From the NCBI RefSeq assembly GCF_009914755.1, contig NC_060926.1: a stretch of 64,000 nt of DNA; one strand, given 5' to 3'. Under the pieces are notes generated by a model. That model did no database searches, was not told where the DNA came from, and saw only the letters and a list, made by a program, of their open reading frames with translations. Origin of the DNA: the human T2T-CHM13v2.0 reference genome, Homo sapiens. Of this stretch, positions 36,701 through 58,899 are shown in pieces; positions within the stretch are counted from its first letter, which is position 1; the number at the start of each line of letters is the position of its first letter. The translations under genes and the position numbers were made by a program.

Positions 36701-37799
36701 TTTCAAAATAAGTGATGCCAAACCAACAAATTATTGGCAACTTCACCTCTTATCTGACAACCTTAGAAGAAGAGAGCCCAGTGTCTAGCACTTTTACTTA
36801 AAATACTTAGAAATTGTCATTTCTTTCCCTCATCAGAGGCTTCCCTTCACTTCTTTCCAATGGAGGATAATGAGGGCAGGATGAAAACCAGAATTGGAGG
36901 AGCTGGTCAAACTCTTCTTTCTCCAAAGAGCTAGGCTCCCAGGACATAGTGAGGACAGACAGCTTGATGCAGTTAATGTAGCCAAAACACCTGCAGTTAA
37001 GCAAGCCAAAAAAAAAAATGTGTTTTGTATCATTTCAGCAATCCTAACTGGATGCCTAAAGAGAAGCTCCTACTCTAGGTTTTCAGAATACCTGTGCAGA
37101 TAAGAGCTAAATCAGAGGTCTCAGAACCCTGCCATCTGGCTAAAATCTGAAAAATTCTATTTGTAAGCTGCATGATTCCCCAATATTTCCAAATAATTCT
37201 TCTATTTGAAAATATCTAAGGATCCCACCATTTGCATATAGATGTTTGATGTCATTCAGATGAAAAATCCAGTTTTACTGCACCTTAATATTGACTGGAT
37301 AGATTACAAACTTGTGAAGAACAACATAACCTCCTTTGTCCAGTCACCCTGGATATCTTCATGGCTGCAGCAGCCTGGCCATCTTTGGAAACCTCTGAAA
37401 GCATGAAGCATCTGCCCTGCATCTCCCAATATCTGGTGTGATAGATGCAGTGTCCAGCTACTCCTGCAGAAAGAAACAGACTCAGAATTCATCCCATACC
37501 TATGTTAGTATAAGAAAGAGAGTGCCCCATAGGGCCTAGCCAGCACTGGGCCCACAGTGAGCATTCAATAAATCCTTAGCGATGGAGTACTTATAGAAAA
37601 TCTGTGTTTGCACATAGATAGTGGCTTCCCAAGGCCCGTGCTTAGGGCTTGATGTGTCCTGTTTGGTGGGAGCCAAGCAGCTGTCTCCTGCATCTGGGGA
37701 TTTCTCACTTGGGGGAGCAAATCCTCTAAGTATTTACAACCATTTAACAACTGCTGCCTATATCCTGACACTTACCTCACAAATTTCTCTCCAACCCAC

Positions 37800-38926: not shown

Positions 38927-39354
38927 TTTCCTGGAGAGACAACAATAATAAACTCCAATACTATGTATATTCTTCACCATTTCTAAATCCAAAAATCCCT
39001 GAATCCTATATACATGACCCCCCCTTGTCCCCATGTGTTTTAAATGAATCAAGGGTGCAATGTTAACAACAATGAAGAAGAAATGAGAGGAACAGCTGGT
39101 TCTTCCATGATTGCTGGTTCATTCATTCATTCTACAAATATTCCATGTGCCAGGCCATGCGGTCACCGCTAGGGAGAAGCATGTGACCTAGCAGATGCGC
39201 AGGTGGTGGATTTCAGCTGACTCGACTTCACCATGCGACCTTGGGCAAGTTGCCCACCTGCTCTGAGTCTGTTTCCTTCTCTGTAAGGTATGGAGGTTGA
39301 ATGATCCCTAATAACCATTCCAAAGCTAATCTTCTGTTGCCTCCAAACTGTAAT

Positions 39355-39795
39355 AATAATAATAAAAAACATTATTAACTGAGCATTTAGTCTGTACAAG
39401 GTCCTATGGTGTTTCTCTATATTATCTCAGTAGAGAAACAAGGCTTGATGTGCCCTGTTTGGTGGAAGGTATATTTCTCTATATTATCTCAGTTGATTCT
39501 CAACTGGGTTGATTCTCAACTGAGATAATATAGATACTATCAATAAATGTAATTGGAGGCAGGGAGTAGAAATGTAGGAATAATATAGTATCTATATTAT
39601 CCATACTGTTATCAACTGAGGTAATAGATTCAGAATCAAATGTAATCAAATGAGGTATCGTTTGATATCTCAGTTGGGATAGGTAGAATTACCAACAGCT
39701 ATTTTGTAAACAAGGAAAACTGAAGCAAAAGAGATTAGCTGACTTGTTAATGGTCAACAAGCTAGAAAATGATGACATTGAAATTTAAACAAACA
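39355..39795 (-). mobile_element. MIR split by a ~250-bp rearranged insert
   Basis: MIR-like actgagcatttagtctgtacaagg...attatctcagttgattctca on the left; ttttgtaaacaaggaaaactgaagc...gacttgttaatggtca on the right. Confidence 0.65.
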
Positions 39796-40184
39796 TTCCT
39801 CTGACCTCACTTTGCTACAAAACCCCAGGTTGTATCATGCCCTCTAACAATTCTGGACGTGGCCAGGACGTGGTGCCAAGTCTCAGGGGCAAGACAGAAG
39901 AGGCAGAAGCACATTTAGTTCTTGTGTTTAAAGCAGGTGATTGTCTCCAAGCTTCTCTGGACTTCAGGTGAACACCTTCCTTTGGTCCTCAGAACACCTC
40001 TTCCCCACATGTATGGCTGCTTAAGAAGACTTTGAGGTCGCAGGTAGAAAAGCATGGCATCCAGAAACACAGCTTCTCCTGACCAAGGCTGTCAACAGCC
40101 ATGAACATCATCCATGAGCTGGTTTCCTCCAGGAGACAACTTCCTGTCCCAAACCTTCACTGGTTGCTTTCTGCCTCAGTCTAC

Positions 40185-40460: not shown

Positions 40461-40779
40461 CATAACCAAATCCAAGGCCTGGCACTCAAAGCCCTTTGCT
40501 ACCTGGACCCCAATCTCTTGTTCCAGTCAACCTAAAACTGCTGCTCTCCAGCCTTCTGGAGTGGACCCACCCGAAGGGCTCCTTTTCATTATACCTCATC
40601 TAAGGGTCCTTCTTGTCTTCCTACACTTCTACTCCCTGCCTCCAGTTGCATTGGATTCTGCATCTTTTGGCTTCCTTTTCCTTCCCTGCCCATCTGGGAT
40701 CCACACAAAAGTGTGGAAACCCTGACTCTTTTAGATCTATGCATGGAAGAACTACTGAAGAAGAACCCATTGCCTGATT

Positions 40780-45150: not shown

Positions 45151-46476
45151 ATTTAAATAATGAAATAAAAAGAAATAAGTAAAAATGGAATTTGCCTGCT
45201 CTAAAATGTATGCTATGCCATCGTTGCTGTGTTTAGTGGACAAATATCACTGGGGATTATAAGGCTTGGGCCTCTTGGCCAAGAAAGTGGGCTTCGCTTA
45301 AGGAACAACCTGCTCATTTTCATAATTAATTGCTTGTTTTGGTTACTTTTTGCTTTAGCTACCAGGAAGCTCAAGAGGATCTCTAAAAACGGCACGGGAT
45401 TTATAGTAGATACTTCTACACACCAATTTTACCCCTTACAATCCTACTCCTATTTTCTCTTCACTCTAATTTCCTCATTTATTGGGATCTGAGAAATAAG
45501 GAAGAAATGTTAGTAATATTTAGTTAATTTAGTATTAGTAATATACAGTTTTTTGTGTGTTGGACCACATGTTGAACTGGCTTGAGCTACAAGCCCCTCC
45601 CTGAACCTAACCCAAAAGAGAGAGGCAGAAGATCCCAGAATCCATCGGAAACAGTGGGAACTCCATGAAGAGACAGAAAGTAGTTGAGTCTCATTCCAAA
45701 AACAGAAAGATTGTCTGTAGCGTCAGAAGTCTCTGGAGCCACTAATAGGTGATAGAAAATGAGAAATGATCATAAAAGAAATGAAGCAAATACATAAAAT
45801 GAGAGGAAATCTGCATGGAAAAATACTGTGTTTGCCATGGTTTGCCATGAATCACTCAACCCAATTTTGTGCACCTGAATGCCAAATAAAAAAAACAATT
45901 ACAAAACTTACCAGGAAAAGATGCAATTGTGGTTAAGTAGAAAGCATTTTATGAGCATCAGTTGTTACTATGGAGTATTTATTTGATCCTTATTTGAAGC
46001 CTTGTAAGATAAGCAGGATAAGCATCATTATTCCCATTTTACTAATAAAAAAAATGAGACCCAGGATGTCTAATTTGAAGAGGCCATTTAAATCTACCTG
46101 AGGATTCAGGCTCGACTGCCTGATCCAGGGTCCAGCAGAACAAAGGAGGAAACTTCTGAGAGATCACCTCTTAATAGGGAGTCAGCCTCTAGGGGCCAAA
46201 GGTCAGCTGCTGTAAGAGTATGAGAGGATATGGCATGACTTTGGGACTTTCTCTGCAAGTTTTGCTTGTATTAATTGGTATTATCAGTTGAACAGTGTCA
46301 CCCAACAAAGATGTTTGAGTCCCCAGTACCTCAGAATATAATCTTATTTCTTTCTCTCTTTTTTTTGTAAGCATACATTGAGAATATTTTATTAAAACAT
46401 GTTTCTTTTTCCATTGAGGCCCATGCAGCCAAATAGAGAAATCCAGCAATAAAAGGTGAATATCAGCATATATATA

Positions 46477-47118
<642 letters not shown>

Positions 47119-47194
47119 TTAAAGTGCATCATAAACTGTTTTTTCAGTGAATTGAAGACTTTGACAGAAAAAAATCTTTGTACGCGCACACTGA

Positions 47195-47511
<317 letters not shown>

Positions 47512-47961
47512 AAGAATATGTTGTTAAAACATGTTTCTTTCTTCATTGGGCCTTATGAGGCCAGAATGTGACCTTATTTCAAAATAAGGTCACTGCAGAT
47601 GCAATTAGTTAAATTAAGATTAGGTCATACTGGAGTAGGGCTGGCCCTTAATCCAGTAGAATTGGTGTCCTTATAAAGATGAGAAATTTGAACACAGAGA
47701 CAGGCACGTGGGGAGAACACCATGTGACAATGAAGGCAGAGATCAGGGTGATGCATCTAGGAGCCAAGGAATGCCAAAGATGACCAGCAACTACCAGAAG
47801 CTACAGGAGTGGCATGCAACAGACTACCCTTACAACCTCAGAAGGAGCAAACCTTATCAACATCTTGATTTTGGCCTTCTCGCCTCCAGAATTGTGACAG
47901 AACAAATTATTGTTATTTTAAGCCATTCAGTTTGTCATCTTTTGTTACAGCAGCCCTAGAC

Positions 47962-50112: not shown

Positions 50113-50424
50113 TTTTTTGTTTGTTTGTTTTTGAGATAGGGTCTCACACTCTGTCACCCAGGCTGGAGTCTGGTGGCACGATCATAGCTTACTGCAGCCT
50201 CCATGTGCTTGGCCCTGGGCTCAAGAGACCCTCCTACCTCAGACTCCTGAGTAGTTGGGACTACAGGTGTGTATCACTATATCTGACTAATTTTTAAAAT
50301 TTTTAGTAGAAAGGGGATCTGGCTATGTTGCCCAGGCTGGTCTTGAACTCCTGAGCTCAAGCAGGCCTCCAGCCTCAGCCTCCCAAAGTGCTGGGATTAC
50401 TGGCACGAGCCACCTCATTCTGCC
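50113..50424 (-). mobile_element. AluJ
   Basis: Reverse dimer with J diagnostics; TSD gggg(t)ccctgatttt on both sides. Confidence 0.92.
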
Positions 50425-50612
50425 AGGGGTCCCTGATTTTAACACATCTGTGCTACACATCTTGTCATGTACTTTCTTGGTGACTCCTATACTGGCCCAC
50501 AACACACTGGAAACAGCATCACCCCTTCATCTTTGGGGTCCTTCACCCGACTTCCTGTGCCTACCACAGAAAAGTTACTTGAACATAGGATGATTTAAGA
50601 ATAAGGTTCTTG

Positions 50613-50698: not shown

Positions 50699-51856
50699 TG
50701 ATAGAGCATGTCTGGGTTGCAGGAGGAAATGCATCAGAATGTCTCTCCCTTTTAGCAGGTGAATAACTTCTGGAACAATGCCAGCTCAACACAAGTCTTC
50801 ATTTTCCCCTTGAGTTTGGTTTGATGGTTTTTGTGCCAGTTCTGCTCCCAGAGCCAGAGGCTAAATCTGGAGACCTGACATTTGATTCCTACAGGTATCA
50901 TTTTCTAAGTTGCAATAGAAATACAGACATTCTCACTTGTAACTTGGCTAGGAGTACATGTGTGGATGGACATGGAAGCAAGTATGTGGAGTCTGGAAAG
51001 AACAGGCATTTATCCACAGCCACTTGATTGTTACCTTCTTGTCAGGGGCAAATCATTTTGTAACAACTGGCCCACACCCTTGTTAAACCATCCCTTGCCC
51101 AAAATTCATCTGTGCTAATTGGGCCTGAATGAAGACAAAGGTCTCAGTTAAATAACATACCGTTATAGTAGGAATAAGACTTCACAACCAAAGAATCTCC
51201 ATCAATTTTCCTGTCTCAAAAAATGCTAGCCTTCATAAATCCAGCAAACACTGGTGCATATAGAAAAAGCAATGAACTGGAAGCCAGGAAACCTGAGCCA
51301 GGCCCAGGCCCAGCTCAAGTCCTACTCAAACCCTACCTCCTCCATAATGTTGTTCTGACTTCTGTATCCTGCACCCATCTATCTTTTCTTGGAATTTTTA
51401 TTTTGCTGACAACTTGTTTCAAATGATTTTCATAATGTGTTTAGCACATGCTTTGATACACAGTTGGCCCCAGTGGGTGTTTACTCCTACTATCGTCATT
51501 ATTACCACATACCTCACCCCTGAATATATTCCTTCTTTAATTATGCTCTCAAAATATCATGTCTTACCATCTTATATTACAAAAAAAGTCTTCACTGTTG
51601 AGAGAAAGAACTTAGATCTGTACCCCTGAGTATAGACCAAATGCTTCATATTATTATTTTCTAATTTTGCTTTTCAGTTTTGAAAACATAGCAGCATATG
51701 CATGCAAGTATCTATGAGTATAAGAAGAAAATGTAGGAAAATCCTTTGTAACATCTAACATCAGTGGACCATATGGCAGACATGGCTGTAATCTTCAAAA
51801 TTCTGTCCAACAAAGAAATGTGTTAAGCAGGAATCTTTAAATAAATAAAAATAATC

Positions 51857-52271
<415 letters not shown>

Positions 52272-57909: not shown

Positions 57910-58190
57910 TTTTTTTTTTTTTTTGAGATGGAGTCTCGCTGTGTGGCCAGGCTGGAGTGCAGTGGCGCAATCTTGGCCTCTGCCTCCCGGGTTCAAGCAA
58001 TTCTCCTGCCTCAGTCTCCCGAGTAGCTGGGATTACAGGCACGTGCCACCACACCCAGCTAATTTTTGTATTTTTAGTAAAGACGGAGTTTCACCATGTT
58101 GGCCAGGATGGTCTCGATCTCTTGACCTCATGATCCACCCACCAGAGCCTCCCAAAGCTGGGATTACAGGCATAAGCCACCATGCCCGCC
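57910..58190 (-). mobile_element. AluSc
   Basis: ggccaggatggtctcgatctcttgacctcatgatcc; poly-T tail on the left. Confidence 0.92.
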
Positions 58191-58352
58191 CTCTTTTTTC
58201 TCTTATAAGAGCACTGGTAATTGGATTTAACTCTCCCACCTCCAACCCAGAATGATCTCGTCTTGAGATCTTTACCTTAATTATGCCTGCAAAGACCCTG
58301 TTTACAGATAAGGTCACATTCACAAGCACTGGCAGTTAATACTTGGATACAT

Positions 58353-58615
58353 CAGGCCTGTAATCCCAGTACTTTAGGAGGCCGAGGCGGGCTGATCACT
58401 TCAGGCCAGGAGTTCGAGACCAGCCTGGCCAACATGGCAAAACCCCATCTCCACTAAAAATACAAAAATTAGCTGGGTGTTTTGGCGCACACCTGTAATC
58501 CCAGCTGCTTGGAAGGCTGAGGCAGGCAGAGGTTGCAGTGAGCTGAGGTCGTGCCACTGCACTCCAGCCTGGGCAACAGCATGAGACTGTCAAAAAAAAA
58601 AAAAAAAAAAAAAAA
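58353..58615 (+). mobile_element. AluS, 5'-truncated with a right-arm deletion
   Basis: TSD acttgga(t/c)acatc; ctgaggcaggcagaggttgc shows ~20 bp missing. Confidence 0.92.
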
Positions 58616-58899
58616 ACTTGGACACATCTTTTTGTGGGGACACAATTCAACCCACTACACCTGCCATGTTGAAAGGGTCACTGAATCCATTTTGAATCCC
58701 AAGTGACTGTACAGCAACCAGGTGTATGAAGCAGTTTAAGAAGGGATCAGGGACCTCCCAGTGGAGGGCAGGACATGCAGGGTAACTCCTGTGGCCTCTC
58801 CCCTGCAGCACTCGGGGTGCTGTGACTGGTCTCACCCTTGGGTGCTGCACATTCTCCTTTGCCTTCCACCTTTTGTAATGTGTTTTGGATGCATATTTT

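What the first reader, a model, noticed from the sequence alone, without database searches (positions are those of the whole stretch)
39410..39680. Mosaic templated-insertion scar copying DNA from both flanks plus multiple snap-back hairpins
Seen: a MIR is interrupted by ~250 bp largely made of short copies of nearby DNA. (i) tagagaaaca 39431-39440 is the reverse complement of 39410-39419. (ii) 39442-39465 matches 37646-37669, ~1.8 kb upstream, same strand, 23/24. (iii) tttctctatattatctcagt recurs at ~39412 and ~39474. (iv) A perfect 19-bp inverted repeat 39478-39496/39516-39534 overlaps a doubled gttgattctcaactg. (v) A 17-bp inverted repeat 39524-39540/39585-39601. (vi) 39546-39580 is the reverse complement of 40618-40652, ~1.05 kb downstream, 32/35. 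(vii) 39631-39646 and 39650-39658 match the reverse complements of 40645-40660 (13/16) and 40591-40599. Known: iterative short templated insertions from flanks are hallmarks of polymerase-theta-mediated end joining and MMBIR/FoSTeS template switching. Inference: a germline break repaired through roughly 8 or more template switches, old enough to have gained mismatches. Standard repeat annotation would probably not flag it.
Basis: partly seen in the sequence, partly recalled or inferred. Interest (0 to 1): 0.8.

Follow-up and report, generated by a model that had tools for sequence, protein, structure and literature searches.

The report
Old template-switch mosaic inside a MIR
A roughly 230-base patch inside an ancient MIR repeat on human chromosome 2 is stitched together from short copies of nearby DNA, a real but functionless scar of a known kind of error-prone DNA copying.

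Summary
Items ii to vi sit at the stated coordinates and are far beyond chance. Across the 3.1-Gb genome, the 24-mer's only partner with at most 1 mismatch lies 1.8 kb upstream. The 35-mer's only partner with at most 3 mismatches lies 1.05 kb downstream, inverted. The insert and both template contexts are single-copy, and homology stops sharply at the core edges.

Item vii is real and longer than reported: 39623-39645 is the reverse complement of 40646-40668, 19/23. Item i is only mildly unusual alone.

A MIR profile built without the locus shows that removing the extra DNA restores a continuous minus-strand MIR. The best reconstruction has two blocks, about 62 and 170 nt. They flank a MIR-native quasi-palindrome, CAGTTGA-TTC-TCAACTG.

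Copies of distant DNA differ from their templates at 9/82 positions, internal repeats at 1/98. A diverged internal duplicate has been partly overwritten by perfect hairpin arms. I therefore favour several rounds of template switching over one catastrophic repair.

The kind is known (germline MMBIR-type templated insertions, template-switch mutations). No primate orthologues were available, so age and order remain inferred.

The parts
39372..39431 (-). Left part of the interrupted MIR (3' region of the element, minus orientation). Its last 20 nt (39412-39431) are direct-repeat copy 1.
   Evidence: Aligns to the MIR profile/consensus only once the extra DNA is excised: HMM coverage grows from 39-129 to 39-206. 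20/20 with 39474-39493.
39431..39440 (+). 10-nt reverse complement of 39410-39419 (snap-back-like). It can also be read as a diverged copy of the palindrome arm, since 39416-39441 matches the reverse complement of 39509-39534 at 24/26.
   Evidence: (I2). Weak alone: 7/500 shuffles and 6/222 natural tiles.
39442..39468 (+). Direct copy of unique DNA 1.8 kb upstream (37646-37672), 25/27.
   Evidence: (D2). It is the only genome-wide partner with at most 1 mismatch for the 24-mer. Flanks are unrelated.
39474..39507 (+). MIR segment carrying the native quasi-palindrome CAGTTGA-TTC-TCAACTG. This is direct-repeat copy 2 and the probable original continuation of the MIR.
   Evidence: The profile favours the reconstruction that keeps 39494-39507: 18.6 bits against 11.6-13.8. 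The spliced alignment keeps 39471-39504. Of the 5 off-locus genomic hits to the 23-mer, 3 lie in MIR copies.
39508..39522 (+). Tandem copy of 39492-39506, 15/15.
   Evidence: (D7).
39516..39534 (+). Perfect inverted copy of 39478-39496, 19/19. It overlaps the tandem copy by 7 nt (TCAACTG), which could have served as the switch microhomology.
   Evidence: (I3).
39524..39540 (+). Left arm of the perfect 17-nt inverted repeat whose right arm is 39585-39601.
   Evidence: (I6).
39546..39580 (+). Inverted copy of unique DNA 1.05 kb downstream (40618-40652), 32/35.
   Evidence: (I1). It is the only genome-wide partner with at most 3 mismatches. Flanks are unrelated.
39585..39601 (+). Right arm of the 17-nt inverted repeat. 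Its last 11 nt also repeat the MIR unit TCTATATTATC.
39609..39646 (+). Diverged, gapped duplicate of 39513-39553. It holds an inverted MIR unit (39611-39626, 15/16) joined to a second inverted copy of the downstream template (39623-39645 = reverse complement of 40646-40668, 19/23).
   Evidence: 1/1000 and 0/1000 shuffles; D1, I8.
39634..39652 (+). 10-nt tandem duplication, AATCAAATGT x1.9.
39647..39665 (+). Stretch with no convincing template. The 9-mer 39650-39658 = reverse complement of 40591-40599 is borderline.
   Evidence: 18/1000. The 30-mer 39640-39669 has no other copy with at most 3 mismatches in the genome.
39666..39676 (+). 11-nt direct copy of 39485-39495, leading back into the MIR. 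TGGG is shared at 39505-39508 and 39675-39678.
   Evidence: 11/11; E = 3.6, weak alone; read from the sequence.
39678..39772 (-). Right part of the interrupted MIR (core region, minus orientation).
   Evidence: A profile of 61 MIR copies built with the locus masked gives HMM 39-129, E = 4.7e-5 on a 561-nt target.
37646..37672 (+). Upstream template, unique DNA.
40618..40668 (-). Downstream template, unique DNA. This contiguous 51 nt is represented by two overlapping copies in the insert.

Best explanation
This is a genuine, old, non-functional mutational scar. A minus-strand MIR carried a short natural quasi-palindrome (CAGTTGA-TTC-TCAACTG). Around it, DNA synthesis repeatedly left its template and resumed elsewhere, primed by a few bases of microhomology.

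The other templates were:
- the nascent or complementary strand of the palindrome itself, giving the inverted and tandem copies of the MIR unit;
- unique DNA 1.8 kb upstream, copied directly;
- unique DNA 1.05 kb downstream, copied inverted and represented twice.

The result is about 230 nt of extra DNA in two blocks, about 62 and 170 nt.

Shown: local templating, uniqueness of the templates, sharp homology edges, polarity (the insert is the derived state), and hairpin potential.

Inferred: the mechanism, which is replicative FoSTeS/MMBIR-like switching and/or synthesis-dependent end joining. Also inferred is a history of at least two rounds: an older round that brought in the distant copies and an internal duplication, and later hairpin-directed switches that made or re-perfected the exact repeats.
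For: - Templating: the 24-mer and the 35-mer each have one close partner in 3.1 Gb, both within 2 kb (reversed-pattern controls 0).
- Not a repeat family: the insert and the 201-nt contexts of both templates match only themselves. The 60-nt flanks of both cores show no similarity beyond chance (419, 53, 307 and 201 of 500 shuffles reach the observed score).
- Polarity: a contiguous 51-nt downstream template yields two overlapping copies in the insert.
- MIR continuity: excising the extra DNA raises the MIR profile score from 10.9 to 18.6 bits and extends coverage from HMM 39-129 to 39-206. A spliced alignment finds the same skips on its own.
- Hairpin seed: the 23-mer with CAGTTGA is ordinary MIR sequence. 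Of 5 off-locus hits, 3 lie in MIR copies.
- Clustering: the locus has the most repeat segments of 1718 tiles. DNA fold z = -6.45.
- Several rounds: mismatches are 9/82 external against 1/98 internal. The duplicate 39513-39553 / 39609-39646 is diverged, and the first copy differs exactly where it forms perfect inverted repeats.
- Known mechanism: human germline MMBIR-type templated insertions, some from up to five templates (PMC8421209, passages). Template-switch mutations create and re-perfect hairpins (PMC5453318, passages; PMC8794818, abstract).
Against: - No outgroup sequence was available, so the derived state, the age and the order of events are all inferred.
- The external/internal mismatch contrast is biased, because exact repeats were delimited as maximal perfect matches. 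Block 1 alone (2/27 against 0/20) fits a single age.
- The ancestral MIR is not uniquely reconstructable. A single excision of 39449-39677 scores higher against the plain consensus (75 against 70), although lower with the profile (13.8 against 18.6 bits).
- My excision boundaries were chosen after seeing the repeats.
- Junctions are mixed: 0-7 nt of overlap, but also 1-9 nt fillers with no traceable source.
- 39647-39665 has no template.
Confidence: 0.6

Rival explanations
1. One germline break or collapsed fork was repaired in a single event with about 10 or more consecutive template switches. Later substitutions hit the distant-template copies, while the hairpin arms stayed or were re-made perfect through intra-hairpin template switching or gene conversion.
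For: - Everything is packed into about 250 bp of one MIR.
- Single human germline events using up to five templates are reported (PMC8421209, passages).
- Template switching can keep stems perfect (PMC8794818, abstract).
- Block 1 by itself fits one age.
Against: - 9/82 against 1/98 mismatches.
- The duplicate 39513-39553 / 39609-39646 is diverged and gapped (33 matches in 42 alignment columns), unlike the exact repeats beside it.
- Both downstream-template copies share AATGTAAT where the template now reads AATGCAAC. This is simplest if one copy was duplicated after insertion.
Confidence: 0.3
2. The patch comes specifically from polymerase-theta-mediated end joining of a two-ended double-strand break, with snap-back and trans synthesis cycles, rather than from replicative switching.
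For: - It has snap-back-type inverted copies next to their templates and junctions with 1-7 nt of microhomology.
- SD-MMEJ and TMEJ literature describes such footprints (PMC2943611 and PMC5728401, search listing only; PMC4032859, passages).
Against: - Two templates lie 1.05 and 1.8 kb away, and no MIR sequence is clearly deleted.
- In the passages read, TMEJ inserts copy sequence flanking the deletion and usually accompany deletions.
- The two pathways cannot be separated from sequence alone.
Confidence: 0.15
3. The insert is an unrecognised old transposable element or MITE with terminal inverted repeats that landed in the MIR.
For: - It has internal inverted repeats.
- Short direct repeats lie at the block edges: 20 nt, and TGGG.
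- The whole-genome DNA search misses copies at MIR-like divergence, so old copies could be overlooked.
Against: - No second copy exists in 3.1 Gb.
- Its pieces match unique DNA within 2 kb at 83-93% identity and nothing else.
- Its inverted repeats are copies of the host MIR itself.
- It has no canonical arrangement of terminal inverted repeats plus target-site duplication.
Confidence: 0.03
4. The pattern is a chance clustering of short matches in AT-rich DNA, or an assembly artefact.
For: - The region is AT-rich.
- Items i and the 9-mer of vii are near chance level.
Against: - E-values run from 2.5e-7 to 1e-3 for five separate matches in the 64-kb window.
- The close partners are unique genome-wide.
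- The locus ranks first of 1718 tiles in number of repeat segments.
- Copies differ from their templates by substitutions, which an assembly chimera would not produce.
Confidence: 0.02

Closest known systems
Germline MMBIR-type templated insertions (MMB-TI), including complex multi-template events (Osia et al. 2021, PMC8421209; passages read)
   Same: Short inserted segments copied from nearby templates, inverted or direct, sometimes from several templates in one place. They are present in the human germline and tolerated in non-coding DNA.
   Different: That survey searched for inverted templates within 100 bp and reports up to five templates. Here two templates lie 1.05 and 1.8 kb away. There are about a dozen junctions, the scar is old, and it probably formed in more than one event.
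Short template-switch mutations, four-point model (Loytynoja and Goldman 2017, PMC5453318, passages; Walker et al. 2021, PMC7954356, passages; Monttinen and Loytynoja 2022, PMC8794818, abstract)
   Same: A quasi-palindrome is converted into perfect inverted repeats by a brief switch to the complementary or nascent strand. This fits 39516-39534 and 39585-39601, and the idea that stems are re-perfected over time.
   Different: A four-point event is one switch and return over tens of bases. It cannot account for the direct copy from 1.8 kb upstream, the two copies from 1.05 kb downstream, or the tandem duplications.
Synthesis-dependent MMEJ / polymerase-theta end joining with snap-back and loop-out synthesis (PMC2943611 and PMC5728401, search listing only; Roerink et al. 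2014, PMC4032859, passages)
   Same: Iterative aborted synthesis at secondary-structure-forming sequence, templated inserts, and junctions with one to a few bases of microhomology.
   Different: The usual inserts are short, copy sequence flanking the deletion and accompany deletions. Here there are kilobase-distant templates and no evident loss of MIR sequence.
FoSTeS/MMBIR complex rearrangements at disease loci (PMC4352052, PMC6902434, PMC5120786; search listing and abstract starts only)
   Same: Serial template switches with microhomology, inverted repeats acting as nucleation sites, and small templated insertions at junctions.
   Different: Those events rearrange kilobases to megabases. This one adds only about 230 bp and changes no copy number beyond the patch.

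Membership tests
Complex templated insertion by template switching (MMBIR/FoSTeS-type) | Inserted segments match nearby genomic templates, with sharp homology edges | tested here: met
   25/27, 32/35 and 19/23 matches to unique DNA within 2 kb. The close partners are unique genome-wide. Flanks are unrelated.
Complex templated insertion by template switching (MMBIR/FoSTeS-type) | The insert is the derived state relative to the ancestral sequence | tested here: inconclusive
   Outgroups were unavailable. Proxy evidence supports it: MIR profile continuity is restored on excision (10.9 to 18.6 bits), and one template has two overlapping copies. The boundaries were chosen after the fact.
Complex templated insertion by template switching (MMBIR/FoSTeS-type) | Microhomology at the switch junctions | tested here: inconclusive
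   Read from the sequence. Overlaps are 1 nt (39431), 7 nt (39516-39522), 4 nt (39623-39626) and 4 nt (TGGG). Other junctions have fillers of 1, 5, 5, 4 and 9 nt. No formal null model was run.
Complex templated insertion by template switching (MMBIR/FoSTeS-type) | Formed in a single event | not testable with these tools
   This needs primate orthologues. Indirect evidence leans against it.
Polymerase-theta-mediated end joining footprint | Templates close to the break (inserts copying sequence flanking the deletion), usually with a deletion | tested here: not met
   Templates lie at 1.05 and 1.8 kb, and no clear MIR deletion is seen. Only the local snap-back pieces fit.
Four-point short template-switch mutation | One switch and return giving a reverse-complement copy of nearby sequence explains the whole change | tested here: not met
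   Direct copies (39442-39468, 39474-39493, 39508-39522) and kilobase-distant templates cannot come from one such event. Individual hairpins (19/19, 17/17) do fit it.
MIR SINE (host element) | Significant match to a MIR profile on both sides of the insert, collinear across it | tested here: met
   Right side: E = 4.7e-5, HMM 39-129. The left side joins only after excision, HMM coverage to 206, E = 6e-7. That the profile built here is MIR rests on my recall of the MIR consensus. No Dfam library was available.
Transposable element / MITE insertion | Multiple copies in the genome, with terminal inverted repeats and a target-site duplication | tested here: not met
   Single copy. Sensitivity is limited to fairly close copies. 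The inverted repeats are copies of the host MIR.
microRNA precursor | Rfam family match at gathering score | tested here: not met
   Best hits were MIR5269 at 33.1 bits against a gathering score of 60, and mir-2851 at 27.5 against 85. These are generic hairpin resemblance.

The most novel reading that the evidence does not exclude
The MIR-born quasi-palindrome has acted as a long-lived, self-renewing template-switch hotspot. An old multi-template insertion enlarged it into AT-rich perfect hairpins (19 and 17 bp). Those hairpins have since triggered further rounds, so the exact repeats are young and the locus may still be unstable or polymorphic in living humans. It would be a small-scale analogue of palindromic AT-rich repeat instability, with its layered history readable from one sequence.
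Probability: 0.3. Interest if true: 0.5.

Novelty: new member of a known kind. Interest (0 to 1): 0.3.

Why it matters
It is a clear and unusually complex single-locus example, with about a dozen junctions in about 230 bp and templates up to 1.8 kb away. It shows how template switching at a small hairpin can build new sequence and perfect palindromes in neutral DNA. Tools that only look within about 100 bp, or only for one switch and return, would miss it, as would standard repeat annotation.

It has no detectable function, no gene is nearby, and the class of event is already described. Its value is as a worked example and a test case for detecting multi-template events, and possibly for recurrent palindrome instability.

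Tried and rejected
- Whole-genome DNA searches with the two MIR flanks returned only the locus itself. That mode cannot see MIR-level divergence, so I built a MIR profile from 61 copies in 264 kb instead.
- Plain blastn and single-sequence nhmmer of the flanks against the window gave only weak MIR hits.
- The Rfam scan found only sub-threshold miRNA-hairpin look-alikes.
- I searched for a source of the unexplained right end. The 30-mer 39640-39669 has no other copy with at most 3 mismatches in the genome. blastn-short of the insert against 264 kb found no further convincing template. The best off-locus hits were 15/15 and 21/23, E = 0.046, and they overlap the MIR unit.
- I tested whether the two distant matches are islands of longer decayed repeats. 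They are not.
- The near-collinear TTCTCAACTGGG / TTCTCACTTGGG match beside the upstream pair is not significant (53 of 500).
- Direct alignment of the neighbouring plus-strand MIR with the minus-strand MIR shows no significant complementarity (206 of 500 shuffles). An inverted MIR pair is therefore not an effective long palindrome.
- I attempted a unique step-by-step order of switches and abandoned it as over-interpretation. Several orders fit the data.

Full report
**What is there**

I read 39200-39900 and the two distant sites.
- 39442-39468 = 37646-37672, same strand, 25/27.
- 39412-39431 = 39474-39493, 20/20.
- A 16-nt tandem at 39492-39522.
- A perfect 19-nt inverted repeat, 39478-39496 / 39516-39534.
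- A perfect 17-nt inverted repeat, 39524-39540 / 39585-39601.
- 39546-39580 = reverse complement of 40618-40652, 32/35.

E-values in the 64-kb window run from 2.5e-7 to 1e-3 for these matches.

Item i, a 10-nt close inverted repeat, is real but only mildly unusual. It is matched by 7 of 500 shuffles and 6 of 222 natural tiles.

Item vii was not reported by blastn at E up to 50. A targeted test shows its first half is real and longer than stated: 39623-39645 = reverse complement of 40646-40668, 19/23, with 0 of 1000 shuffles reaching the score. The 9-mer 39650-39658 stays borderline (18 of 1000).

**Is it more than chance or a repeat family?**

The window's own 3.1-Gb genome could be searched.
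- The 286-nt region matches only itself and its own palindrome.
- The 201-nt contexts of both distant sites match only themselves.
- The 24-mer has 5 places with at most 3 mismatches: itself, the upstream site at 1 mismatch, and three unrelated places at 3 mismatches. The reversed-pattern control gave 0.
- The 35-mer has 2 places with at most 3 mismatches: itself and the downstream site on the opposite strand. The control gave 0.
- The 60 nt on either side of both cores show no similarity beyond chance (419, 53, 307 and 201 of 500 shuffles reach the observed score). These are short copies with sharp edges, not islands of decayed longer repeats.

I also scanned 1718 overlapping 300-nt tiles across 264 kb (the window plus 200 kb fetched). 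Of these, 91% have no local repeat of 15 nt or more within 2.5 kb. The locus tile has the most separate segments (12) and ranks 4th in covered bases. The two higher-ranking tiles inside the window, and the other high-ranking in-window tiles, fall in stretches the hub lists as masked repeats. The third higher-ranking tile lies outside the window, where I had no mask list.

Folded as single-stranded DNA, the region has z = -6.45, with 0 of 200 shuffles as stable.

One caveat applies. The genome DNA search does not detect MIR-level divergence. 'Single copy' therefore means no fairly close copy.

**The host element and the ancestral state**

I built a profile from 17 and then 61 copies of the repeat found in 264 kb, with 39330-39840 masked. 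Its consensus agrees with my recollection of MIR. That naming is recalled, because no Dfam library was at hand.
- The right flank 39680-39772 matches on the minus strand (HMM 39-129, E = 4.7e-5).
- The left flank is not detected in the present sequence.
- Removing 39432-39493 and 39508-39677 gives one continuous alignment, HMM 39-206, at 18.6 bits.
- A spliced alignment against the consensus with free long skips finds nearly the same skips on its own at a moderate skip penalty: 39407-39470 and 39505-39679. The second skip is broken only by a short 12-nt aligned block at 39644-39655, which I take to be spurious. At a high penalty it finds a single skip, 39449-39677.
- That single-skip variant scores 75 against 70 versus the plain consensus, but 13.8 against 18.6 bits with the profile. 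The ancestral state is therefore not uniquely fixed.
- Independent support for keeping 39474-39507 as MIR comes from the 23-mer that includes CAGTTGA. It has 5 off-locus genomic hits at 2 mismatches (reversed-pattern control 2), and 3 of those 5 lie in MIR copies at the matching profile position.

I conclude that this MIR copy carried a natural quasi-palindrome, CAGTTGA-TTC-TCAACTG. The extra DNA is best read as two blocks, about 62 and 170 nt, on either side of it.

**Anatomy of the mosaic**

- Block 1 runs as follows: a 10-nt inverted copy of the preceding MIR bases, the 27-nt upstream copy, 5 nt of unknown origin, and a 20-nt re-copy of the MIR.
- Block 2 starts with a 15-nt tandem copy. 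It turns through 7 shared bases (TCAACTG) into a 19-nt inverted copy.
- It continues into the 35-nt inverted downstream copy and then the 17-nt inverted-repeat arm.
- Next comes a second, diverged unit (39609-39646). This unit is a gapped duplicate of 39513-39553 (1 of 1000 shuffles). It joins an inverted MIR unit to a second copy of the downstream template.
- Then follow a 10-nt tandem, 19 nt with no template, and an 11-nt MIR re-copy that re-enters the MIR at a shared TGGG.
- The downstream template is a contiguous 51 nt (40618-40668) represented by two overlapping copies. This supports copying from template to insert.
- Both copies read AATGTAAT where the template now reads AATGCAAC.

**One event or several?**

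- Distant-template copies differ from their templates at 9 of 82 positions (95% CI 5-20%).
- The internal direct and inverted repeats differ at 1 of 98 (CI 0.03-5.6%; Fisher p = 0.006).
- This contrast is inflated, because the exact repeats were delimited as maximal perfect matches.
- Block 1 alone (2/27 against 0/20) fits a single age.
- The internal duplicate 39513-39553 / 39609-39646 is itself diverged, and the first copy departs from the second exactly where it takes part in the two perfect inverted repeats. This is the pattern expected if later hairpin-directed switches overwrote an older structure.
- The shared AATGTAAT is simplest if one copy of the downstream segment was duplicated after insertion.

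I therefore favour at least two rounds (about 0.6) over one catastrophic repair followed by stem maintenance (about 0.3).

If the 11% external divergence is neutral and shared between both lineages, the first round is tens of millions of years old. That figure uses primate substitution rates recalled from memory, and the confidence interval is wide.

**Mechanism**

The shown facts fit microhomology-primed template switching. The kilobase-distant templates and the lack of evident loss of MIR sequence fit replicative switching (FoSTeS/MMBIR) better than classic polymerase-theta end joining. In the passages I read, polymerase-theta inserts copy sequence flanking the deletion and mostly accompany deletions (PMC4032859). 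The local snap-back pieces fit either pathway. Sequence alone cannot separate the two.

**Comparison with what is known**

- Human germline MMBIR-type templated insertions have been catalogued, including complex ones from up to five templates. The tool used was restricted to inverted templates within 100 bp (PMC8421209, passages).
- Short template-switch mutations that create perfect inverted repeats from quasi-palindromes are described genome-wide (PMC5453318, passages; PMC7954356, passages). They are proposed to keep stems perfect (PMC8794818, abstract).
- SD-MMEJ snap-back papers and disease-locus FoSTeS/MMBIR papers were seen only as search listings.

The locus is thus a new and unusually intricate member of a known kind. 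It is not a transposable element, not a known RNA family, and not chance.

**Limits**

No primate or other mammalian orthologue, no second human assembly and no curated repeat library were available. Age, order of events, derived status and population state all remain inferences. I did no search for this specific locus in print. The three literature searches concerned the mechanism only.

Noticed in passing
window 39196-39313 (+), 39351-39365: A second MIR copy in plus orientation lies about 50 nt before the interrupted minus-strand MIR, tail to tail, with a (TAA)5 run between them. The two copies share no significant direct complementarity (206 of 500 shuffles).
   Followed up: partly
window 37500-37573 (+): Another MIR fragment (profile positions 138-216, the same part of the element as the insertion site but in the opposite orientation) ends about 73 nt before the upstream template 37646-37672. 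Whether this diverged inverted homology helped bring the template close was not tested.
   Followed up: no
window 39497-39508 vs 37701-37712: TTCTCAACTGGG and TTCTCACTTGGG lie almost collinear with the 27-nt upstream copy (offset 1 nt). nhmmer joined them into one 71-nt alignment (E = 0.025). The flank test was not significant (53 of 500).
   Followed up: yes
window 46400-47750, 50150-50450, 51800-52100, 57950-58700: These tiles have the highest local self-similarity in the tile scan. They coincide with stretches the hub lists as masked repeats, presumably neighbouring young interspersed repeats.
   Followed up: no
L021:1299-1321 and L022:6548-6562: Two short off-locus matches to the MIR-unit part of the insert (21/23 and 15/15, E = 0.046 in 264 kb). 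They are probably the same conserved MIR segment in other copies. This was not checked against the profile.
   Followed up: no
method note: the genome search in DNA mode on the human genome returned only the query itself for two MIR fragments. 'No other match' from that mode does not exclude old interspersed repeats.
   Followed up: yes
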